IMG/VR virus record: IMGVR_UViG_2609459769_000004
Length of the DNA: 9,765 nucleotides
Direction: 5' to 3' (one strand)
DNA from: a virus
Taxonomy: Duplodnaviria; Heunggongvirae; Uroviricota; Caudoviricetes
Under the pieces are notes generated by a model. The model worked only from the letters and a program-made list of their open reading frames with translations, searched no databases and was not told where the DNA came from. Shown here in pieces: positions 1 through 7,804 of the stretch (positions are counted from its first letter, which is position 1; each line of letters starts with the position of its first letter). The position numbers and the translations under genes were made by a program.

Positions 1-60
1 CGGTCTTGAAAACCGGCGACCCGAAAGGGTTCCAGAGTTCGAATCTCTGCGCTTCCGCCA
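1..60 (+). tRNA. serT: 3' 60 nt of tRNA-Ser (anticodon UGA); 5' part lies outside the window
   Basis: Sequence CGGTCTTGAAAACCGG...GGTTCCAGAGTTCGAATCTCTGCGCTTCCGCCA has anticodon loop CU-UGA-AA, a long variable arm, T-arm GGTTCGAATC and a 3' CCA. It matches my recollection of E. coli tRNA-Ser(UGA). Confidence 0.9.
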
Positions 61-1364: not shown

Positions 1365-1771
1365 GTGCCCGGTAAACGGGTCTCCCCCACATTACCGGAA
1401 GCAACCAGGGGAGTACCATTCGAAAGGCAGCATGCAGACAGTGATGACCCGGCAACAGTTGAGCCAGGGGCACGGTCCCCCGAATAATGCGTCTGGTAAT
1501 ACGCCGCAAGAACAAAAGAACCGACACCAAACAGCCCGCTGTCAGGGCTTCCGGATGGTCCCCGTGGTCCTGCCGGGCCTGCAGCTCCCGTATCCCCTTT
1601 CGGTCCCCGTGGTCCTGCCGGGCCTGCAGCTCCCGCATCCCCTTTAGGTCCCTGAGGACCTGCCGGCCCTGCAGCTCCCGTATTCGCGCCAGTTCTCCAC
1701 CTTCTGACCGTGCATACCATCAGGGTAAAAATTTGCATCCTGTACGCCTGCCGCCGCCAGCTTCTGACCAA
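1286..1771 (-). pseudogene. 5'-truncated phage tail-fibre gene fragment with collagen-like repeats and a distal C-terminal domain
   Basis: Minus-strand frame encodes [43 protein letters not shown] followed by ...[20 protein letters not shown], a tail-fibre-tip-like GTWRxxG motif. There is no plausible N-terminus: the in-frame sequence upstream is interrupted by a stop at 1784 and overlaps the preceding ORF. Confidence 0.55.
1557..1690. repeat. 45-bp tandem repeat, about 3 copies, encoding collagen-like Gly-X-Y triplets on the minus strand
   Basis: GGTCCCCGTGGTCCTGCCGGGCCTGCAGCTCCCGTATCCCCTTTC at 1557-1601, repeated at 1602-1646 with 2 substitutions, and a diverged partial copy at 1647-1690. 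Confidence 0.85.
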
Positions 1772-2039
1772 TCGCCTTTATCATTACTGGCGCAAGATAT
1801 CCGGCCCTGAATATGCGCACGGATTTTCTGCCTTCCGGCACAATTTGCAGCTTATCCAGTTCGGATAACTGCTGCTCCCCAAGCCACACAGGAGGCTCAT
1901 TATCTCCGGCCATACGCGCGTCATGTTCCTGCCATTGTTTTGCGTGTGACCAGGCATCACTACCCGCAAAAATAATGACTTCTGTTTCTTTGTGTTTTAT
2001 GCCGCGTGACTGCTGTTTTACGTTCGGTGCCAGTTTCAT
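1644..2039 (-). CDS. Hypothetical protein, 131 aa; probably the 5' fragment of a larger gene that reads into the collagen-repeat DNA
   Basis: ATGA start/stop overlap with the upstream ORF and SD AGGGG 6 nt upstream. The last ~15 codons overlap the collagen repeat in another frame and look like read-through (…[10 protein letters not shown]). Confidence 0.4.
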
Positions 2040-2335
2040 TTTTTACCCCTGAATCCGTTAATCATGGTTTTCAGCTTCTGGATGTTTGCCCGTGCCCTGG
2101 CGTTGCTGGTGGGCACGTTATGCGGCGCGGTCTGTACCAGAGAAAAATCACGCCGGAACTGATAAACAGGCATCACGCAATCATATTCGTAACCTTCACG
2201 GCGGTAGGTTACGCGCCGTTCTTCCACGCCCTTAATCATTACCGTGCCGCCGTACTGGTCGCGGTAAATATCACCGCGCGTAAATTTAGGGTGAGTGTTG
2301 CCACTGGCAGTTAAGCCAGAATATTTAAGTTTCAT
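2036..2335 (-). CDS. Small hypothetical phage protein, 99 aa
   Basis: SD GGAGA 5 nt upstream of the ATG, and ATGA overlap with the next gene. Protein MKLKYSGLTASGNTHPKF...RRVTYRREGYEYDCVMPVYQF. Confidence 0.5.
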   Translation of the reverse strand: MKLKYSGLTASGNTHPKFTRGDIYRDQYGGTVMIKGVEERRVTYRREGYEYDCVMPVYQFRRDFSLVQTAPHNVPTSNARARANIQKLKTMINGFRGKK

Positions 2336-2340
2336 TATTT

Positions 2341-2574
2341 TTATTCTCCGGTGTGCTGTTCTTTATATCTGTCGTGCAATAGATCTATTTCTTGCAGTTC
2401 CATTATTACAGGCTCAAGAAGCGTTATTAATGCCGTGGCAATTCTTGATTTTTGTTTGTCGCATTCATTGTCGCCAAGTGTTTCAAGCCATATGCGCAAT
2501 ATTTCCTGCATGTTTTCACTGTGAGAAAGTGCAAGAAATGCGCGGTCTATTGTTTCGAGGTAAATATCACGCAT
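2341..2574 (-). CDS. Small hypothetical protein, 77 aa
   Basis: SD GAGGA 9 nt upstream; start overlaps the upstream gene's stop by 8 nt. Confidence 0.45.
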   Translation of the reverse strand: MRDIYLETIDRAFLALSHSENMQEILRIWLETLGDNECDKQKSRIATALITLLEPVIMELQEIDLLHDRYKEQHTGE

Positions 2575-2800
2575 GGCTTACATCCTCAGGAAATTTTCTT
2601 CTGTAACGCGCCTCTGCCACATATTCCGCATAATCGGCGGCGATATTCAGTACATCAAGTCCCGTTGATTTATATTCTTTCGTGGAAAGTAAGAAAAAAG
2701 CCGCTCTAATAAGTTCTGGCATTGACGAAAGCGCATCAGCCGCATCATCAGGAACGCCGGAAAATTCCTGTTTCAGGGAATTAAAACGATCATCACGCAT
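2567..2800 (-). CDS. Small hypothetical protein, 77 aa (MRDDRFNSLKQEF...); alternative start at 2812
   Basis: Start lies 2 nt downstream of a G8 tract (on the coding strand) and overlaps the upstream gene's stop, suggesting translational coupling. Confidence 0.4.
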   Translation of the reverse strand: MRDDRFNSLKQEFSGVPDDAADALSSMPELIRAAFFLLSTKEYKSTGLDVLNIAADYAEYVAEARYRRKFPEDVSHA

Positions 2801-3014
2801 AACCCCCCCCATTTTCACAATCAGCAACAAGAATATTTTTAGCGTCATTCAGTGACCGCGTTGCGGTGTATCGGATACATTCCAGGGCGAATAGTGTGTA
2901 TTCTTCCCTTTCTTCCTTTTGTGCAAGCTCTGCTGTGCATTCAATATCAATAAGCGCGTGCATCAGCGTAGTGAGTGCGGCGGCGGCTGCGTCCGGTGTG
3001 GTTTTATTGCACAT
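2793..3014 (-). CDS. Small hypothetical protein, 73 aa (MCNKTTPDAAAAALTT...); the longest ORF extends to 3068
   Basis: SD GGAGGGG immediately upstream of the ATG at 3014. The C-terminus ...ENGGGYA is encoded across the G8 homopolymer. Confidence 0.4.
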   Translation of the reverse strand: MCNKTTPDAAAAALTTLMHALIDIECTAELAQKEEREEYTLFALECIRYTATRSLNDAKNILVADCENGGGYA

Positions 3015-3234
3015 GTACCCCTCCGCATTTTTTTTCGTTAGAAATAAGCGTTCTTCTTTCCTGTTCATCGATCAGGAATACGCAGACCTCACCGCTAAGG
3101 CGTTTAAGTAAGCCGATGATTGCCCCTGATTCGCTGTCGGTCATCATGCCAGGGTAATCCTCTGCCAGTGCGCAAATAACTTCGATTTGGTGGGCGCGTT
3201 CTGCTGCCTGTTGTAGTGTGATTTCCTGGCTCAT
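3004..3234 (-). CDS. Small hypothetical protein, 76 aa (MSQEITLQQAAERAHQIEV...)
   Basis: ATG overlaps the stop of the Icd-like gene (ATGA), consistent with translational coupling. Confidence 0.45.
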   Translation of the reverse strand: MSQEITLQQAAERAHQIEVICALAEDYPGMMTDSESGAIIGLLKRLSGEVCVFLIDEQERRTLISNEKKCGGVHVQ

Positions 3235-3425
3235 AAGCCTACCCCCTGGCGAATACGGGCGGCGAATACAGCAACACAACCGGACGGGCAACGGCTACGC
3301 GCTTCGCGTTCCGTCCAGGCGGTTACGTGGATGATTTGAGATTCTCCGGCACTTAGTGCCAGAAAACGCCACACAAAGGCAGTTTGTGTGTGCGCCAGAC
3401 GTGGGGTATGCTGTGTTCCAGCCAT
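3231..3425 (-). CDS. Icd-like small protein (host cell division inhibitor Icd-like family), 64 aa; first gene of the leftward operon
   Basis: SD AGGAG 8 nt upstream of the ATG. Protein MAGTQHTPRLAHTQTAFVWRFLALSAGESQIIHVTAWTEREARSRCPSGCVAVFAARIRQGVGL carries the T-E-R-E-A-R ... F-A-A-R motif I associate with Icd-like proteins of P4-like prophages (from memory). Confidence 0.5.
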   Translation of the reverse strand: MAGTQHTPRLAHTQTAFVWRFLALSAGESQIIHVTAWTEREARSRCPSGCVAVFAARIRQGVGL

Positions 3426-3612
3426 AATCGTTACTCCTGTTAACGGTTTGGTTAGACGCCCCGCTACTGCCGCAAACAGTTCGGGGCGTTGTCGTTTACA
3501 TCCTCTTACTGAGGTGTGATTTAAATTAAATTCAACTGAATCACAGGTCAAGTGTTTTTTGTGATTCTTTTTTGTGTATACTGAATCACATCTTTTGTTT
3601 AGGAGAATGCAC
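3426..3612. promoter_or_regulatory. Divergent control region between the Icd-like operon (leftward) and a regulator gene (rightward), with repeated operator-like motifs and a leader hairpin
   Basis: Four copies of GAATCACA / TGTGAT(T/C) in alternating orientation at 3515-3522, 3537-3545, 3560-3567 and 3582-3590, about 22 bp centre to centre. Candidate -10 TATACT at 3577-3582 for the plus promoter; candidate -35 TTGACC (complement of 3546-3551) for the minus promoter. Hairpin ACGCCCCG / CGGGGCGT at 3456-3489. Confidence 0.55.
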
Positions 3613-3918
3613 ATGGCAAAAAACACTATCAACGACAAATCAAAACAGATTTCAATTCGTATCCCACATGATGCTTTTGATGGCATGGAATCCGTAAAAC
3701 TGGACGGCGAAAGCAACGCCGGATTCATAGTAACCGCCATGCGCGGTGAAATCGCCCGCCGCCAGGCAGAAGGAAGCGGAGAAAACCTCCTGATTTCTTC
3801 GCTCAATGCACTGGCGCAGGTGGAAAAACTCGGAATCAAAGCCGCCGAGGAGATCGGGCAGCTCGTCACTGTCGCACGTGAAGAACTCCAGCGCCGCAAG
3901 ACTAAAGAACCAGAGTAA
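3613..3918 (+). CDS. Putative DNA-binding regulator, 101 aa, possibly ribbon-helix-helix
   Basis: SD AGGAG 7 nt upstream. N-terminus KQISIRIPHDAFDGMESVKL... fits a beta-strand-then-helix RHH pattern. Divergent from the operator array. Confidence 0.4.
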   Translation: MAKNTINDKSKQISIRIPHDAFDGMESVKLDGESNAGFIVTAMRGEIARRQAEGSGENLLISSLNALAQVEKLGIKAAEEIGQLVTVAREELQRRKTKEPE

Positions 3919-3975
3919 TCACCATCAGCGCCGTGGTGTAAGGTATTACGGCGCATTGCTATGCAGGACAACACA

Positions 3976-4149
3976 ATGACCGATAAAGAATTGACCAAAA
4001 CATTATCACCGGCACGGAAAAGACGGCGCAGAAAGATAGAGCATGAATCAGAAAGATTCGCGCCATGTGCTTTTGCCCTTGAGCAATTCCTTAAAGAGTA
4101 CAGGGAAAAGCGCTCATTGCAGGTATGGCAACGAACTGAACCAGACTGA
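3976..4149 (+). CDS. Small basic hypothetical protein, 57 aa (alternative start at 3961)
   Basis: AGGA 8 nt upstream of the ATG at 3976. Protein MTDKELTKTLSPARKRRRRKIEHESERF... Followed by the terminator at 4229. Confidence 0.35.
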   Translation: MTDKELTKTLSPARKRRRRKIEHESERFAPCAFALEQFLKEYREKRSLQVWQRTEPD

Positions 4150-4228
4150 TTGCATTGCCCACCAGCCGCAAATGTGGCATTGTTGGCAATGCTCATGCGT
4201 TGGGGATAAGGTATAGCTTGTGTCGAAT

Positions 4229-4256
4229 GGCCACCGTGACAGGTGGCCTTTGTTTT
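4229..4256 (+). terminator. Rho-independent terminator ending the rightward regulator operon
   Basis: Stem GGCCACC / GGTGGCC with GTGACA loop, followed by TTTGTTTT. Confidence 0.7.
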
Positions 4257-4541
4257 GCCCGTTATTTGGCAATTGTGGCGCTTCTTCACACAGTTGATAT
4301 AATTCCCCTGCACTGATCCAATTTTTTCGCAGCAGGTTAATTGTTCGCAAGGGCGCTCTGGTAACGGGGCGCTTTTTGTTTTTACCCACCAGCACAATAA
4401 AAATCTTTATTTTCCATTTTTATAAAATTTCATGCTTTCCGGACGACTGGTCATATGTCATTTTTTAGCAGAAGATTTTGCCTTGCTGGTGAGTAGCTTC
4501 TCGGTTAACACGATGTACCGTATAATCAGCACCGCGTGTGG

Positions 4542-5120
4542 TTACTGAATACGCTCACCAAAGTAAAACTCAGGCTGATATTCACGTATCAGCCTTTTTT
4601 CTTCTTCCTCCAGTTCACGTTTTTTGCGCTTACATGCCTGTAGCGCCCTCCCCTTCTCGCTGGCACTTATCTGGTATTGCTCTTTGCGGCGGGAAAAATC
4701 CTGTAATGCACCCCACGGGATACCATAAGCCCCCGTTTTTCTGATACCCGGTATCACATTTCTGAATACCCAGTTACTGAAACGATGGGCGAATGTGCCT
4801 TGCGTCGTTGCTTTGCGGCTACGGGCTATTAGTTTGTAGAAACCTGACTCAGAGATAATGCTCATATTCTGATTTCCTCCTGGGGTGTAAGTTAAATTTA
4901 CTCCCTTTTCATCATCATCAAGCATCTGCAACGCCGTACGCGAATTGGTCAGTTCCAGCGCAGCGCAGACATCCTTTGCAACAAACCACGGATCGCCGTT
5001 CAGATACACCACGCGAACGTTCACACCATCAAAGCGCAGAACGACCAGATCACGAAAATCACAGAATTTTTTTACATGACGTGCGTCACCCTTGCCCGTC
5101 ACGGCAATATTTTTATTCAT
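4542..5120 (-). CDS. Bro-N domain protein (antirepressor-like), 192 aa
   Basis: N-terminal ...FDGVNVRVVYLNGDPWFVAKDVCAALELTNSRTALQMLDDDEKGV matches the Bro-N signature. Charged coiled-coil-like C-terminus KRKKRELEEEEKRLIREY. SD GAGGT 9 nt upstream. Confidence 0.7.
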   Translation of the reverse strand: MNKNIAVTGKGDARHVKKFCDFRDLVVLRFDGVNVRVVYLNGDPWFVAKDVCAALELTNSRTALQMLDDDEKGVNLTYTPGGNQNMSIISESGFYKLIARSRKATTQGTFAHRFSNWVFRNVIPGIRKTGAYGIPWGALQDFSRRKEQYQISASEKGRALQACKRKKRELEEEEKRLIREYQPEFYFGERIQ

Positions 5121-5179: not shown

Positions 5180-5383
5180 TTAGTGGGGATTGGCCTGTTC
5201 TCGTTGTTTATCTAACCATGCTTCTACATCTCTACGGTGCCAGGTATGTCGCCGTCCAATTCTGAACGGCTGAGGAAAACCATTATTCTCATCTTTCCAG
5301 AAATTGATGAATGCACTCATTGCTCCATATCGCAAGATTTTCATTACGTCTTTAGTAAATAAAATATCTTCATTGGTATTCAT
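5180..5383 (-). CDS. alpA: AlpA-family DNA-binding protein (excisionase/regulator-like), 67 aa; the longest ORF starts at 5404
   Basis: Strong SD GAGGAGG 8 nt upstream of the ATG at 5383. Sequence ...ILFTKDVMKILRYGAMSAFINFWKDENNGFPQPFRIGRRHTWHRRDVEAWL aligns in pattern with E. coli AlpA (HTH, FP, W-L tail). Confidence 0.65.
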   Translation of the reverse strand: MNTNEDILFTKDVMKILRYGAMSAFINFWKDENNGFPQPFRIGRRHTWHRRDVEAWLDKQREQANPH

Positions 5384-5396
5384 TTGCTGAACCTCC

Positions 5397-6635
5397 TCAA
5401 CCATTTACTACTCTTAAACCTTTCATACCACCGGATCTATTAATTACCCCTTTTCTCGCATCATCAAAAAAATCACCGACCCATTGCATCATGATCTTAC
5501 GCTGTTCTAGATAAGTAGTTCTATTATAAATATCTCTTATTTTATCACCACTTTTATGCGCCAATGCAGCCTCGATTACATCGGGGTTAAATCCCTCCTC
5601 ATTTAAAAGCGTACTCCACATTGAACGAAAACCATGTAACGTTACAATCCCTTTGAACTTGCTGGCAGCAATTGGGGTCTTGATAGTATTCCTCCCCATA
5701 GGCGCATCTTTTGTTCTGGAGGAAAAAAACACATAACGCCCTCTTTTTATTTCCTGCATTGTTCTGAGGATACTAATAGCCTGTGATGACAAGGGAACAA
5801 CATGTTCACGATGGCATTTCATTTTATGCGCGGGGATAATCCACAAGCCAGAATCAAAATCAATCTCTGACCACTCTGCTTTAATCGCCTCACCTGGCCT
5901 GACCATTGTCAATATCTGGAATAAAAGTGCATTATGAGCTATTTGATAGGTATGAGGCACACTATCCCACCAGCTCAGAAATTCAGGCAATCTTTCAACA
6001 GGTAGTGCTGCTAATGATTTATTTTTCTTTCCTGTGAATGCAGTCTTTATCTTAAGTAATGGATTTGTTTTCAATGCTCCACAATTTACAGCATAATTCA
6101 TAATTTCATTTAATCTTGATATTAATTTTTTTTGCAACGCATTCTTATCGGATACGGCATCCAGAGCATTAATAGCTACTGGTGCTGTAATTTTTTCTAT
6201 ACTGTACTTACCAAAGAAAGGAACAAGATATTTGTATACTTCATATTCGATATTATACAGCGTAGGTTTCCGCAATTCAGATCCCTTTTTAAAAGCGAAC
6301 CATGCATTAGCAATAGCTTCAAATGTCTGTAGATTTTTTAGTGACATCTCAATTTTACGATTTTTCTTCTCCGTCACTGGATCAACTCCACGTGCAATCA
6401 TTCGCCGAAGTTCATCACGTACTTCCCGTGCTTCCGCGAGTGAGAATTCAGGAAAACGTCCTATCGTGTATGTCTGCCGTTTCTTCGTTATCGGATGGCT
6501 ATAACGGAAACGCCACACTTTCCCACCGGCTTTACTCACATTCAGCAATAAACCGAACCCATCATAAACGGCATAGTCCTTTTCACGTGGTTTCATCCCC
6601 TTAACTTCAGTCACGGTTAATGGCTTTACCGACAT
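5397..6635 (-). CDS. int: Tyrosine site-specific integrase, P4-type, 412 aa
   Basis: N-terminal arm-binding-like region (LLLNVSKAGGKVWRFRY), C-terminal catalytic region HGFRSMWSTLL...GDKIRDIYNRTTYLEQRKIMMQW with candidate catalytic Tyr. SD GAGGG upstream. Confidence 0.9.
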   Translation of the reverse strand: MSVKPLTVTEVKGMKPREKDYAVYDGFGLLLNVSKAGGKVWRFRYSHPITKKRQTYTIGRFPEFSLAEAREVRDELRRMIARGVDPVTEKKNRKIEMSLKNLQTFEAIANAWFAFKKGSELRKPTLYNIEYEVYKYLVPFFGKYSIEKITAPVAINALDAVSDKNALQKKLISRLNEIMNYAVNCGALKTNPLLKIKTAFTGKKNKSLAALPVERLPEFLSWWDSVPHTYQIAHNALLFQILTMVRPGEAIKAEWSEIDFDSGLWIIPAHKMKCHREHVVPLSSQAISILRTMQEIKRGRYVFFSSRTKDAPMGRNTIKTPIAASKFKGIVTLHGFRSMWSTLLNEEGFNPDVIEAALAHKSGDKIRDIYNRTTYLEQRKIMMQWVGDFFDDARKGVINRSGGMKGLRVVNG

Positions 6636-6796
6636 CTATCGCCCTCATTTTTTAGTCCGTCATGTAGTCCATTCAAGCCAATAACAAGCGATAAACTAAC
6701 TCATTATCAAGCAAAGAGAGGAAACTCATAAAATCACAACTCATTGAAAAGACTATGAAACGACACCAGAACATACAAACAGGTAAGAAATGTACC
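6636..6796. promoter_or_regulatory. AT-rich integrase-upstream region with three direct AACTCAT repeats; candidate int promoter / attachment-arm region and junction with the truncated terminase
   Basis: AACTCAT(T/A) at 6698-6705, 6723-6730 and 6738-6746. The region lies between the integrase start (6635) and the premature end of the terminase ORF (6797). Confidence 0.3.
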
Positions 6797-7804
6797 CTAC
6801 ATCCAGAATGACGCAATCCGGGAATTTCGTGGCGTTCCGGTGATACTGCCGTCCGCCACCGCCCGTTCACCTTCACGAAGCCAGATCCCTTTGTTATTCA
6901 GTTCGCGTTTCTGCTCAGGGGCAATCAGCCCGCGACAATGCGGACACATCAGACGGGCAGCCTGACCGGCAGCCACAAAATCCGGGTTATTCCGGTATCC
7001 GGTCATGTTATCCATCACCGGCTGAAAATATTCCCCGCAGTGCGGACACGGCCAGTACCACCGGCGGCGGTCTCCCCGGTTATACAGTGACAGGATCCCC
7101 GTTGTTGGCGGTGCCTCATGTGCGCCGCCACAGCGCCATTTGGTGTCAGTGATATCCCGCCCCGGCGAACTCTCGACCAGGGTCATCCCCGAGGACATAA
7201 AGGTGGTGGTACGCTTTGATGCCAGGGTGAAGGCATCCCCTTCCCCGTCCACGTTTTCAGGGAAACGGTCATAATCCGTCAGCGCCACACGACGGTAATC
7301 CGAAGAAGAAAATACAGTGATCGACGGCCAGCCAATCTTCAGGAAGGAGCCGTCAAGAAACATTTTATCGTGGACGTTGTTGTCATTACGGGAAGGACTG
7401 AGGCGCTTGCTGACCTCCGGACTGTGGCGAAACGTTCTGGAAAGACGCGTTCTGGAATGCTCACGCGCCTTCGTCTCAGTCATCTGCACCACCAGCATAT
7501 CCGCCGGATCACAGATGATGCCGTACACAATCCAGCCATCAATCAGCCCTTCGGTTTTCCCGGTTCGCGCAGGTCCCACAAACACCACCGCGTCATATTC
7601 ACGGGCTGATAATGTATTAATGGGGTCAATCATATAGGGCGTCAGCGATGACTCCCACGGACCGGAAGTATTGGCTCCCCGTGGTACCCGCATATAACGC
7701 CTGATGGCTTCCGCTACTGGTAACCGGCTGGGTGGGCGAAACAGCGAGGCCACTTCGCGCCAGATATCGGATGCGCGGCTATGGCTCTCGTTCACCTGAT
7801 TCAC
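6797..7804 (-). pseudogene. Terminase large subunit (lambda gpA-like), N-terminal 335 aa only; truncated
   Basis: SLFRPP...VAEAIRRY, Walker-A-like GPARTGKTE, CPHCGEY...CPHC and NKGIWLREG parallel lambda gpA. Lambda gpA is about 640 aa; here the ORF ends at ...ASFWM* with no continuation. Confidence 0.85.

What the first reader, a model, noticed from the sequence alone, without database searches (positions are those of the whole stretch)
1644..3425. Seven-gene translationally coupled operon of small unknown proteins headed by an Icd-like gene
Seven consecutive minus-strand ORFs (64, 76, 73, 77, 77, 99 and 131 aa) are packed with ATGA or 8-11 nt start/stop overlaps, and each has its own Shine-Dalgarno. 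Only the first (Icd-like) has any family resemblance I can name. In phage P4 the equivalent operon encodes small host- and helper-manipulating proteins (kil, eta, epsilon) ahead of the primase. Cassettes like this are where anti-repressor, anti-defence or toxic host-takeover functions are typically found, so these are candidates for an undescribed function.
Basis: partly seen in the sequence, partly recalled or inferred. Interest (0 to 1): 0.55.

Follow-up and report, generated by a model that had tools for sequence, protein, structure and literature searches.

The report
Truncated phage-satellite early gene operon
The seven packed genes are real. They are the front end of the early/replication operon of a common E. 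coli phage satellite (a mobile element that exploits a helper phage). The copy here is broken: the seventh 'gene' is only the stump of the satellite's DNA primase, and four of the middle genes are small proteins of still unknown function.

Summary
Observation confirmed. Seven minus-strand ORFs lie at 3425→1644, each with a Shine-Dalgarno-like motif. Junction overlaps are 4, 11, 8, 8 and 4 nt; one junction (o5→o6) is a 5-nt spacer.

The cluster is not seven small unknown proteins:
- o1 is Icd-like and falls in the same PHROG as the phage P4 kil region.
- o6 is Pfam DUF4222.
- o7 is the first 120 residues of a P4-alpha-type primase. A deletion (TAT microhomology, 1681-1683) joins it to prophage tail-fibre DNA, adding 11 out-of-frame residues.

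The cluster belongs to a PICI/cfPICI-type satellite (P4-type integrase, HTH, BRO-N, YlcI/YnfO regulator) inserted in a lambdoid prophage's large-terminase gene. The satellite's replication remainder, capsid module and far end are gone.

In relatives, Icd and DUF4222→replicase are fixed anchors. The DUF4222/replicase ATGA overlap holds in 11/11 loci, whether the replicase is a primase or a RepA helicase. The genes between the anchors vary by cassette.

o2-o5 are small and acidic. AlphaFold predicts helices for a natural o3-o4 fusion homologue. They match only 'unknown function' families and are under purifying selection (dN/dS about 0.1-0.5).

A covarying leader hairpin precedes Icd and matches no Rfam family.

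Verdict: a degraded member of a known element type. The small-protein functions remain open. Modest interest.

The parts
3510..3590 (.). Divergent control region. It holds four TGTGATTC-type half-sites arranged as two inverted repeats (3510-3521/3539-3550 and 3560-3567/3583-3590), and a weak leftward promoter candidate, TTGACC (3551-3546), 17 nt, TAATTT (3528-3523).
   Evidence: Repeats. The promoter candidate was read by eye. It scores only 8/12, and the consensus scan found no promoter here that meets its threshold. The operator role is an inference.
3574..3918 (+). Divergently transcribed YlcI/YnfO-family small protein, the putative repressor of the leftward operon. It is followed by a 62-aa ORF (3961-4149) and a terminator hairpin (4229-4248).
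   Evidence: NF041551, 65.2 bits against a cut-off of 30. PHROG 6522. Terminator. Relatives carry a YlcI/YnfO protein or a HicB-family antitoxin-like protein at this position. The repressor role is inferred.
3445..3499 (-). Conserved structured leader: a two-part hairpin followed by an invariant UCUAACCA, about 20 nt upstream of the Icd start.
   Evidence: Single-sequence fold z = -3.3. 92% of cells paired; 7 of 10 pairs show compensatory changes; 0 of 500 shuffles reach this; slid controls give at most 53% paired. The covariance model finds it upstream of the Icd-like gene in 14 sources (13 loci plus the window), including three not used to build the model. No Rfam match.
3231..3425 (-). o1: Icd/Kil-like small basic protein (64 aa, pI 11.2), the first gene of the operon.
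   Evidence: NF033153 phage_ICD_like, 64.8 bits. PHROG 1743, E = 1.6e-23, the same PHROG as residues 73-137 of the P4 'cI ORF'. dN/dS 0.17-0.40.
3004..3234 (-). o2 (family F): 76-aa acidic protein. It is an optional cassette.
   Evidence: PHROG 1478, unknown function. Present in only 261 of 5426 complete E. coli genomes, at 97.8% nt identity or more in all but two. Absent from 5 of 10 related loci. Occurs alone as Icd-F-DUF4222-primase in 16 IMG/VR loci. pN/pS 0.41.
2793..3014 (-). o3 (family C): 73-aa acidic protein. The homologous half of a natural C-A fusion is predicted as a helical hairpin.
   Evidence: PHROG 5146, and the N-terminal half of PHROG 2512. Present in 10 of 10 E. coli relatives, always just before family A. 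AlphaFold model of the natural C-A fusion P0264: helices 8-34 and 48-73, pLDDT 50-69.
2803..2810 (-). Poly-G tract (G8) at the o3 stop / o4 start. Its length sets whether o3 and o4 are separate, o3 is extended, or the two are fused.
   Evidence: G8 in 6 sequences (the window and 5 loci) and G9 in 3. A G7 reading (my derivation from the sequence) gives the fused 155-aa protein seen as P0264 and as PHROG 2512.
2567..2800 (-). o4 (family A): 77-aa acidic protein. The homologous half of the C-A fusion is predicted as three helices.
   Evidence: C-terminal half of PHROG 2512, and PHROG 24341. Only 27 representatives among 1.84 billion clustered proteins. Conserved G15, P17, D19, G47, Y57. The A half of the fusion model has pLDDT about 83.
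2341..2574 (-). o5 (family E): 77-aa acidic protein.
   Evidence: PHROG 2196, unknown function. 525 homologue clusters; the 120 best listed are named E. coli or unnamed. Present in 8 of 11 sequences (the window plus 7 of 10 loci); other small ORFs take its place in the rest.
2036..2335 (-). o6: DUF4222 protein (99 aa, pI 10.2). A Tudor/SH3-like beta-barrel followed by a basic C-terminal helix. Its stop overlaps the replicase start (ATGA).
1681..2039 (-). o7, real part: the N-terminal 120 codons of the satellite's P4-alpha-type DNA primase.
   Evidence: 100% identical over residues 1-120 to the 584-aa primases of L005 and L006, and the match stops at residue 120. PHROG 2850 and 864 (DNA primase). 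The full-length relative carries D5_N, DUF5906 and Pox_D5.
1644..1683 (-). Deletion junction and out-of-frame tail. A TAT microhomology at 1681-1683 joins the primase to the collagen-repeat part of a prophage side-tail-fibre gene. The last 11 codons of o7 ([11 protein letters not shown]) read that DNA in the wrong frame.
   Evidence: Three-way alignment with the tail-fibre parent L012 and the primase parent L005. Homology breakpoints. Collagen repeat in the correct frame.

Best explanation
The cluster is the promoter-proximal part of the early/replication operon of a PICI/cfPICI-type phage satellite.

The satellite's gene order is: P4-type integrase, small HTH, BRO-N antirepressor-like gene, divergent YlcI/YnfO regulator, then Icd ... 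replicase. It is inserted in the large-terminase gene of a lambdoid prophage.

How it most likely works:
1. Transcription starts in the 148-bp divergent region. It is probably gated by the divergent YlcI/YnfO-family protein acting on four TGTGATTC half-sites, and it passes through a conserved structured leader. (Inferred.)
2. Ribosomes then read a chain of start/stop-coupled genes. (The overlaps are shown; the coupling itself is inferred.)
3. The first product is an Icd/Kil-like basic peptide that arrests host division and opens translation of the downstream genes. (Inferred from the P1 icd and P4 kil precedents.)
4. Next come four small acidic proteins, o2-o5. They are interchangeable accessory cassettes, not core machinery. 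I take them most likely to be protein-binding modulators of helper-phage or host targets. (Inferred; roughly 40% of my belief.)
5. The last two genes are a DUF4222 Tudor-like adaptor, always translationally fused by ATGA to the replicase, and the replicase itself.

In this window the operon is a fossil. A deletion with 3-nt microhomology cut the primase after codon 120 and joined it to the prophage tail-fibre gene. That removed the rest of the satellite and the prophage's head and tail genes. The '131-aa ORF' is therefore a primase stump, and the element can no longer replicate or be packaged.
For: ORFs and overlaps.

Primase stump and junction: with breakpoints.

Element context:
- Integrase domains and the terminase gpA ATPase fragment; BRO-N; YlcI/YnfO.
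- Intact relatives at five different insertion sites carry the primase plus capsid genes or a full cfPICI set.
- The same integrase-terminase junction is found in 57 of 5426 genomes.

Anchors and variable middle:
- The order Icd -> (F) -> C -> A -> E -> DUF4222 -> replicase recurs in 10 E. coli loci.
- E. albertii has Icd, one 61-aa ORF, DUF4222 and the primase.
- Of 120 IMG/VR loci, the 71 that carry both anchors start with Icd and end with DUF4222. The interval between is 217-1363 nt and holds different cassette families.

Selection.

Link to P4 kil.

DUF4222 fold.

Leader hairpin.

Acidic and basic charge pattern.

Literature:
- Icd-like, BRO/Ant, YlcI/HicB and primase genes are listed as typical of PICI, cfPICI and P4-like satellites (PMC13612085).
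- O157 Sakai Sp7 was described as a lambdoid/P4 chimera with a P4-like integrase, a Vis homologue and an alpha-like gene (PMC2669165).
Against: - No transcript, promoter or protein data exist here.
- The consensus scan found no sigma-70 promoter in the control region that meets its threshold.
- The small HTH upstream has only a sub-threshold HTH_17 match, so calling it AlpA rests on position and on the RefSeq annotation.
- The functions assigned to Icd, DUF4222 and o2-o5 are by analogy. o1 has no significant pairwise similarity to P4 kil, and no P1 or P4 record was hit by tblastn.
- The deletion junction is in none of the 5426 complete E. coli genomes searched. An assembly chimera cannot be formally excluded, although a 3-nt microhomology junction is typical of a real deletion.
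Confidence: 0.8

Rival explanations
1. First reader's reading. The small ORFs (o2-o5) are a cassette of anti-repressor, anti-defence or host-takeover effectors of undescribed kinds, carried by the satellite to manipulate the helper phage or the host immune systems. This concerns the function of o2-o5 and is compatible with the operon identity given above.
For: - The content between the conserved anchors varies. Families F, C, A, E, H, G and at least several more occur in different combinations.
- All four proteins are small and acidic (pI 4.5-4.8). The o3/o4 homologues in the natural fusion are predicted helical.
- They are not needed by every relative: Icd-DUF4222-primase and Icd-F-DUF4222-primase architectures exist.
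- The families are narrow and lineage-restricted.
- By my own knowledge of the P4 literature, P4 epsilon occupies the equivalent position.
Against: - No homology to P4 epsilon (hhalign probability 5%) or to other P4 left-operon proteins.
- No PADLOC, Pfam or PDB match.
- The C-A pair keeps a fixed order in all 10 E. coli loci, and the o3-o5 stretch matches 1065 genomes. That is more conserved than typical fast-turnover counter-defence genes.
- Nothing was tested functionally.
Confidence: 0.35
2. The cluster works as an Icd-centred abortive-infection or superinfection-exclusion module. The Icd-like toxin is held in check, and together with the linked small genes and the primase it is triggered by an incoming phage protein. 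This is what was reported for a prophage locus in E. coli ECOR61.
For: Silas et al. (bioRxiv 10.1101/2023.04.06.535777) report that a phage accessory gene (orf24) triggers cell death through a prophage locus. [quoted passage not shown] That matches the gene content and order seen here. P4 kil is also lethal when derepressed (same paper).
Against: - I could not obtain the ECOR61 sequence, so homology of the linked genes to o2-o6 is untested.
- The module sits where every relative keeps its replication genes. A defence read-out may be a side effect of derepressing a satellite's early operon.
- No PADLOC hit.
- In this window the primase is truncated, so a primase-dependent system would be dead.
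Confidence: 0.2
3. o2-o5 are replication-initiation accessory factors (origin remodelling, helicase or primase loading), expressed stoichiometrically with the replicase through translational coupling.
For: They are always upstream of, and co-oriented with, the replicase, and are coupled to one another by overlaps. DUF4222 keeps an invariant ATGA overlap with either replicase type.
Against: - Many relatives replicate with the same primase or RepA genes but lack C, A and E altogether.
- The same small-gene set is found with two unrelated replicase types: D5_N/DUF5906 primase and AAA_25 RepA.
- The proteins are acidic and have no detectable nucleic-acid-binding family.

The argument holds better for DUF4222 than for o2-o5.
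Confidence: 0.15
4. The small ORFs are chance reading frames or decaying pseudogenes in a dead element.
For: The element in this window is non-functional: the primase is truncated, and the capsid module and far attachment site are lost. A few close comparisons give dN/dS of 0.65-0.78 for o4 and o5, based on only 4-15 substitutions per comparison.
Against: - All six frames are intact and full-length against relatives.
- dN/dS is 0.1-0.4 at informative divergence, and pooled pN/pS is 0.35-0.56.
- Each ORF belongs to a PHROG family.
- Conserved residue patterns fit folded helical proteins.
Confidence: 0.03

Closest known systems
Left (early) operon of satellite phage P4: kil/eta (inside the old 'cI ORF') - epsilon - ORF151 - ORF106 - alpha primase
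   Same: - A leftward operon that starts next to the immunity/control region.
- The first gene is a basic peptide of about 65 aa. o1 and residues 73-137 of the P4 'cI ORF' both match PHROG 1743.
- It is followed by small ORFs joined by 8-nt overlaps (P4 coordinates) and ends in an alpha-type primase.
- A P4-type integrase lies nearby.
   Different: - No detectable homology of o2-o6 to epsilon, ORF151 or ORF106.
- No sequence similarity to the P4 region upstream of kil, where the CI RNA is encoded by my recollection of the P4 literature, and no hit of the leader model in P4.
- Control appears to rest on a divergent YlcI/YnfO protein.
- No psu, delta or sid is annotated in the relatives, which carry capsid genes instead.
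E. coli PICIs and capsid-forming PICIs (for example EcCICFT073, EcCIEDL933), and O157 Sakai Sp7
   Same: - The same backbone: integrase, small HTH, antirepressor, Icd-like gene, primase.
- One close relative of this operon (L004, 88% nt identity) sits in an element with a full cfPICI capsid and packaging set.
- The literature lists Icd-like, BRO/Ant, YlcI/YnfO or HicB and primase genes as typical content (PMC13612085).
- Sp7 was described as a lambdoid/P4 chimera with a P4-like integrase, a Vis homologue and an alpha-like gene (PMC2669165).
   Different: - This copy is truncated after primase codon 120.
- Its closest terminase-inserted relatives carry only a ClpP-protease/major-capsid fusion as a morphogenetic gene, not a full capsid set.
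- The small ORFs between Icd and the primase have no assigned role in the papers I read.
Phage P1 immI operon (c4 RNA - icd - ant)
   Same: An Icd-family first ORF (NF033153) overlaps and precedes the next gene, and a structured RNA element lies just upstream. The role of P1 icd as a division inhibitor, and the dependence of ant expression on its translation, are from my own knowledge of the P1 literature.
   Different: - No match to Rfam C4 or to any other family.
- tblastn with o1 finds no P1 record.
- The downstream genes are not ant. The BRO-N antirepressor-like gene lies upstream in a separate unit.
ECOR61 prophage cell-death locus (Silas et al., bioRxiv 10.1101/2023.04.06.535777)
   Same: An Icd-like gene plus linked small genes and a DNA primase act together. 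Icd is the likely toxic effector.
   Different: Homology of the linked genes was not testable here. [quoted passage not shown] In this window the long in-frame ORF (3231-4397) looks like an artefact antisense to the regulator gene.

Membership tests
Icd-like proteins (NCBIfam NF033153, phage_ICD_like) | Match to the family HMM above its curated cut-off | tested here: met
   o1 scores 64.8 bits against a cut-off of 25, E = 5.2e-18.
Icd-like proteins (NCBIfam NF033153, phage_ICD_like) | Inhibits host cell division when expressed | not testable with these tools
   Needs induced expression and microscopy.
P4 Kil (the 65-aa product inside the P4 'cI ORF') | Sequence relatedness to the P4 kil region | tested here: inconclusive
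   Both match PHROG 1743: o1 at 1.6e-23, and residues 73-137 of the P4 ORF at 7.5e-21. Direct blastp and phmmer comparison is not significant.
Pfam DUF4222 (PF13973) | Match to the family HMM above the gathering score | tested here: met
   o6 scores 85.7 bits against 27 and covers the whole 53-position model.
P4-alpha-type primase | Complete protein with D5_N, DUF5906 (helicase) and Pox_D5 domains | tested here: not met
   o7 holds only residues 1-120, which are 100% identical to the N-terminus of the 584-aa relatives. The domains lie at residues 153-575 of the full-length protein and are deleted here.
P4-like satellite (strict sense) | Presence of psu, delta and sid capsid-hijack genes and of an epsilon homologue | tested here: not met
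   None is annotated in the intact relatives. No similarity of any operon product to P4 epsilon, ORF151 or ORF106.
PICI / cfPICI satellites of Enterobacteriaceae | Site-specific integrase at one end | tested here: met
   Window 5397-6635 carries Arm-DNA-bind_3, Phage_int_M and Phage_integrase.
PICI / cfPICI satellites of Enterobacteriaceae | AlpA-family regulator next to the integrase | tested here: inconclusive
   Window 5180-5404 has only a sub-threshold HTH_17 match (17.7 bits against 27). RefSeq names the relatives' protein at this position 'helix-turn-helix transcriptional regulator'.
PICI / cfPICI satellites of Enterobacteriaceae | Own replication gene (primase or rep), followed by a packaging or capsid module | tested here: inconclusive
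   Met in intact relatives: L004 has a full cfPICI set; L003, L005 and L006 have a major capsid protein and a decoration protein (L003 also an annotated small terminase); L001 and L002 have a ClpP/major-capsid fusion. In this window the primase is cut and the module is deleted.
P4 epsilon (helper derepression protein), considered for o3 | Profile-level similarity to epsilon | tested here: not met
   One 21-residue local tblastn match (E = 0.002 in a tiny database). hhalign of the o3 family against epsilon gives probability 5%. The PHROGs differ.
P1 C4 / P4 CI immunity RNAs, considered for the leader hairpin | Match to the Rfam C4 model, or sequence similarity to the P4 region upstream of kil | tested here: not met
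   No Rfam hit even with lax filters. No similarity to the P4 region upstream of kil. The leader model has no hit in P4.
Known anti-phage defence systems (PADLOC-DB) | Any component HMM match | tested here: not met
   No family at E <= 0.1 for any of ten proteins.
Single translationally coupled operon | Same strand, overlapping or abutting stops and starts, no predicted terminator between genes | tested here: met
   Overlaps. The only terminator-like site inside the cluster is a weak hairpin within o1 (3390-3370), and none lies between o2 and o7. Co-transcription itself was not testable.

The most novel reading that the evidence does not exclude
The stretch between the Icd-like gene and DUF4222 is a dedicated accessory-gene slot of enterobacterial satellites. 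It holds a rotating pool of small acidic proteins (o2-o5 and at least six further families). These act on helper-phage or host-defence proteins by mechanisms not yet described. The slot is switched on through a new, covarying leader RNA element (hairpin plus UCUAACCA) that has no Rfam family.
Probability: 0.3. Interest if true: 0.6.

Novelty: new member of a known kind. Interest (0 to 1): 0.33.

Why it matters
The window's copy is a broken remnant, so it is of little interest in itself. The operon it represents is very common. Parts of it match 1565 of 5426 complete E. coli genomes, including Nissle 1917, ATCC 25922 and many O157:H7 strains, and its middle genes are all annotated 'hypothetical'.

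Three points could guide experiments on how these satellites exploit helper phages or trigger cell death:
- The gene order is two fixed anchors (Icd-like gene; DUF4222 joined to the replicase) around a variable cassette slot.
- DUF4222 is a Tudor-like partner of two unrelated replicase types.
- A conserved structured leader precedes the operon.

None of this overturns current understanding of PICI or P4-type satellites.

Tried and rejected
- **Rfam.** Scans of the whole window, of the control region with lax filters, and of the Klebsiella relative gave nothing for C4, IsrK or any other family. Sub-threshold hits to isrD, MicX and R1162 are terminators or chance.
- **Homology to P4 left-operon proteins.** blastp, phmmer and tblastn gave nothing significant. 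The one lead, the o3 family against epsilon, failed hhalign.
- **o3, o4 and o5 as paralogues** (MAFFT aligned a shared P-D-A-A-x-A-L motif; o4 and o5 both start with MRD). hhalign probabilities were below 1%, so this was rejected.
- **PADLOC, Pfam, NCBIfam and PDB sequence searches for o2-o5.** No meaningful hit.
- **Fold search of the C-A fusion model against BFVD.** Nothing at E <= 0.001, and model confidence is modest.
- **DUF4222 against BFVD.** Only uncharacterised small proteins and DUF1653.
- **AFDB50 fold library.** Unavailable.
- **Homologue searches for o2 and o5.** These returned almost only near-identical E. coli proteins, too shallow for good alignments.
- **Genome-contig scan.** The DUF4222 alignment found only two loci.
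- **Phage collection.** tblastn with o1 hit one record, and blastn with the operon hit only the 74-nt leader.
- **Sigma-70 promoter in the control region.** The scan found no promoter there that meets its threshold.
- **Literature.** I found no paper describing satellites inserted in the terminase gene.

Full report
**Observation.**
- o1 3231-3425 (64 aa)
- o2 3004-3234 (76 aa)
- o3 2793-3014 (73 aa)
- o4 2567-2800 (77 aa)
- o5 2341-2574 (77 aa)
- o6 2036-2335 (99 aa)
- o7 1644-2039 (131 aa)

Successive stops and starts overlap by 4, 11, 8, 8 and 4 nt. The exception is o5->o6, which has a 5-nt spacer. Every start has a purine-rich Shine-Dalgarno-like motif 4-11 nt upstream. No terminator-like site is predicted between o2 and o7. 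The description is therefore correct, apart from one junction and from the nature of the last two ORFs.

**The seventh ORF is a primase stump.**
- Residues 1-120 of o7 are 98-100% identical to the N-terminus of 584-aa 'DNA primase family' proteins of related elements, and every match stops at residue 120.
- PHROGs places it in primase families.
- The full-length relative carries D5_N, DUF5906 and Pox_D5 domains beyond residue 150.
- Left of window position about 1683 the DNA is instead 99% identical to the 3' part of a prophage side-tail-fibre gene, followed by a DUF4376 protein (probably tail-fibre assembly), a YkgJ-family gene and the 3' end of a tRNA-Ser.
- A three-way alignment puts the join at a TAT shared by both parents (1681-1683).
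- The last 11 codons of o7 read the collagen-like repeat of the tail-fibre gene out of frame.
- None of the 5426 complete E. coli genomes searched has this junction.

**Context.** To the right of the cluster lie:
- a divergent YlcI/YnfO-family gene (3574-3918, + strand), a 62-aa ORF and a terminator;
- a BRO-N gene (4542-5120);
- a small HTH gene (5180-5404; only a weak HTH_17 match);
- a P4-type integrase (5397-6635);
- the N-terminal 335 codons of a lambda gpA-type large terminase (6797-7804), preceded by DUF1441 and lysis genes.

In strain RM10466 the same integrase-to-Icd arrangement continues through a full primase and a ClpP-protease/major-capsid fusion gene. The C-terminal part of the terminase gene then resumes, all inside a Stx2c prophage. 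The cluster therefore belongs to a satellite inserted in its host prophage's terminase gene. The same integrase-terminase junction occurs in 57 of 5426 genomes.

The same operon, at 88-97% nt identity, also occurs in elements at four other sites: tRNA-Pro/yejM (Nissle 1917), tqsA, rcnR and roxA. These carry either a major capsid protein with a decoration protein (in Nissle 1917 also an annotated small terminase), or a full capsid-forming-PICI set with portal, protease, connectors, HNH and both terminase subunits.

**Families.**
- o1 is Icd-like. It shares PHROG 1743 with residues 73-137 of the P4 'cI ORF', a 65-residue stretch that starts at an ATG. I take this stretch to be P4 Kil, from my recollection of the P4 literature.
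- o6 is Pfam DUF4222.
- o2-o5 match only PHROGs of unknown function (1478; 5146 and the N-half of 2512; the C-half of 2512 and 24341; 2196). They match nothing in Pfam or PADLOC, only a chance-level NCBIfam hit for o5, and no PDB sequence above chance.
- The o4 family has only 27 representatives among 1.84 billion clustered proteins.
- o2 homologues are all E. coli or unnamed.
- o2-o5 are all acidic (pI 4.5-4.8). o1 and o6 are basic.

**Conservation.**
- Parts of the cluster match 1565 of 5426 genomes, and 108 genomes cover at least 80% of it.
- The o3-o5 stretch matches 1065 genomes over a wide identity range.
- o2 is in 261 genomes and is nearly invariant.
- Pairwise dN/dS against ten loci is about 0.1-0.4 at informative divergence.
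- Pooled pN/pS against IMG/VR relatives is 0.35-0.56 for all six complete ORFs, including o2, which has 52%-identical homologues there.

**Architecture.**
- In ten E. coli loci the order is Icd -> [o2 family, optional] -> o3 family -> o4 family -> o5 family or another small ORF -> DUF4222 -> replicase.
- The replicase is either the P4-alpha-type primase or an unrelated RepA/AAA_25 helicase.
- The DUF4222 stop overlaps the replicase start by ATGA in 11 of 11 loci.
- E. albertii has only one 61-aa ORF between Icd and DUF4222.
- Among 120 IMG/VR loci that share the leader 15-mer, the 71 with both anchors have an Icd-to-DUF4222 interval of 217-1363 nt. These intervals hold different combinations of cassettes, including families not present here. 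The exact arrangement of this window occurs twice.
- Icd and DUF4222/replicase are therefore fixed anchors, and o2-o5 are accessory cassettes. Within E. coli, o3 and o4 behave as a fixed pair.
- A poly-G tract at the o3/o4 junction (2803-2810) is G8 or G9 in different loci. A G7 reading would give the natural o3-o4 fusion (P0264, PHROG 2512).

**Structures.**
- AlphaFold on a 50-sequence alignment gives DUF4222 a confident core (pLDDT about 90): a small five-stranded barrel with one short helix, then a basic C-terminal helix.
- A natural o3-o4 fusion is predicted as all-helical: two long helices for the o3 part and three for the o4 part. Confidence is moderate (mean pLDDT 66), and there is no informative structural neighbour.

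**Control region.**
- The 148 bp between o1 and the divergent regulator gene hold four TGTGATTC-type half-sites forming two inverted repeats.
- There is only a weak promoter candidate. The scan found no promoter there that meets its threshold.
- Downstream lies a leader hairpin followed by an invariant UCUAACCA (3445-3499).
- The hairpin is supported by covariation: 92% of cells paired, 7 of 10 pairs with compensatory changes, 0 of 500 shuffles reaching this, and slid controls at 53% or less.
- A covariance model finds exactly one strong copy upstream of each Icd-like gene, including in Shigella, in a Klebsiella phage record and in one E. coli locus not used to build it. It finds none in P4 or in the E. 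albertii locus.
- No Rfam family matches.

**Comparison with known systems.**
- The layout parallels the P4 left operon, whose order is kil, epsilon, ORF151, ORF106, alpha, with 8-nt overlaps between the first three genes. Only the first and last genes are related to those here.
- It parallels the P1 immI operon in having an Icd-family leader gene behind a structured RNA, but it is not C4.
- The element type is the PICI/cfPICI class. Recent surveys list Icd-like, BRO/Ant, YlcI/HicB and primase genes as its usual content (PMC13612085). Sakai Sp7 was described earlier as a lambdoid/P4 chimera (PMC2669165).
- The only functional report I found for such a gene string is the ECOR61 locus of Silas et al. 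There, an Icd-like effector plus linked genes, including a primase, caused cell death on sensing a phage protein.

The best-supported account is a translationally coupled early/replication operon of a PICI-type satellite, present here as a fossil cut off in its primase.

The functions of the four small acidic proteins remain unknown. Their cassette-like distribution favours accessory roles directed at the helper phage or the host over core replication roles. No evidence here assigns a mechanism.

This is a new, degraded member of a known kind and is of modest interest. The more original by-products are the anchor/cassette architecture, the invariant DUF4222-replicase coupling, and the unclassified leader RNA motif.

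Noticed in passing
window 3445-3499 (-); also L001 9595-9650, L003 11772-11827, L011 2527-2580, L014 3064-3119 and others: A conserved structured leader (a two-part hairpin plus an invariant UCUAACCA) lies upstream of every Icd-like gene examined. It has strong covariation and no Rfam family. It is absent from P4 and from the E. albertii locus. The exact 15-mer CGGGGCGTCTAACCA occurs in at least 120 IMG/VR contigs.
   Followed up: partly
window 6636-7804; L001 1544-2674 and 13021-14025: The satellite is inserted inside the large-terminase (gpA) gene of a lambdoid prophage (a Stx2c prophage in RM10466). The terminase N-fragment ends ...SFWM and the C-fragment resumes ...SWMEGP after the satellite. 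The same integrase-terminase junction is in 57 of 5426 complete E. coli genomes. Excision of the satellite might be needed to restore the prophage's terminase. I found no paper on this.
   Followed up: partly
window 1681-1683: A deletion junction with 3-nt microhomology (TAT) joins the satellite primase to the prophage tail-fibre collagen repeats. It removes the rest of the satellite and the prophage head and tail genes. It is found in no complete E. coli genome searched.
   Followed up: yes
window 2803-2810 (-): A poly-G tract at the o3 stop / o4 start. It is G8 in the window and five loci and G9 in three others, where o3 gains a different 9-residue tail. A G7 reading (my derivation) gives a fused o3-o4 protein, which exists in databases. 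This could be phase variation, programmed slippage or sequencing error.
   Followed up: partly
window 3231-4397 (-): A 388-codon ORF in frame with Icd runs antisense through the control region and the YlcI/YnfO gene. The frame is open for at least 232 codons in 7 of 11 sequences (the window plus 6 loci). PGAP annotates fragments of it as 'Icd-like, incomplete'. Its composition looks non-coding. [quoted passage not shown].
   Followed up: partly
L001-L010, L015 (DUF4222/replicase junctions): The DUF4222 stop overlaps the replicase start (ATGA) in all 11 loci, even though the replicase is either a D5_N/DUF5906 primase or an unrelated AAA_25 RepA-type helicase.
   Followed up: yes
window 3370-3390 (-), inside o1: A terminator-like hairpin (CACACAAA...TTTGTGTG followed by GCGTTTTCTG) lies 36-56 nt into the Icd ORF. 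It could be a translation-sensitive attenuator. The other Icd sequence type appears, by eye, to lack it, so it may be chance.
   Followed up: no
L011 (Klebsiella phage P12620-1, 106.5 kb) 1385-4033: A deposited 106.5-kb Klebsiella phage genome carries the same module: an AlpA-like gene, an antirepressor, a small divergent DNA-binding-like gene, the leader motif, an Icd-like gene and small ORFs, one of which starts with MRDIY like o5. The module is therefore not confined to small satellites.
   Followed up: partly
window 1-60: The window appears to start inside a tRNA-Ser gene next to the prophage end (hyaA side). I infer this from the match to L012, where the tRNA lies at 1473-1560. ARAGORN finds nothing in the window because the gene is cut by the window edge.
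   Followed up: no
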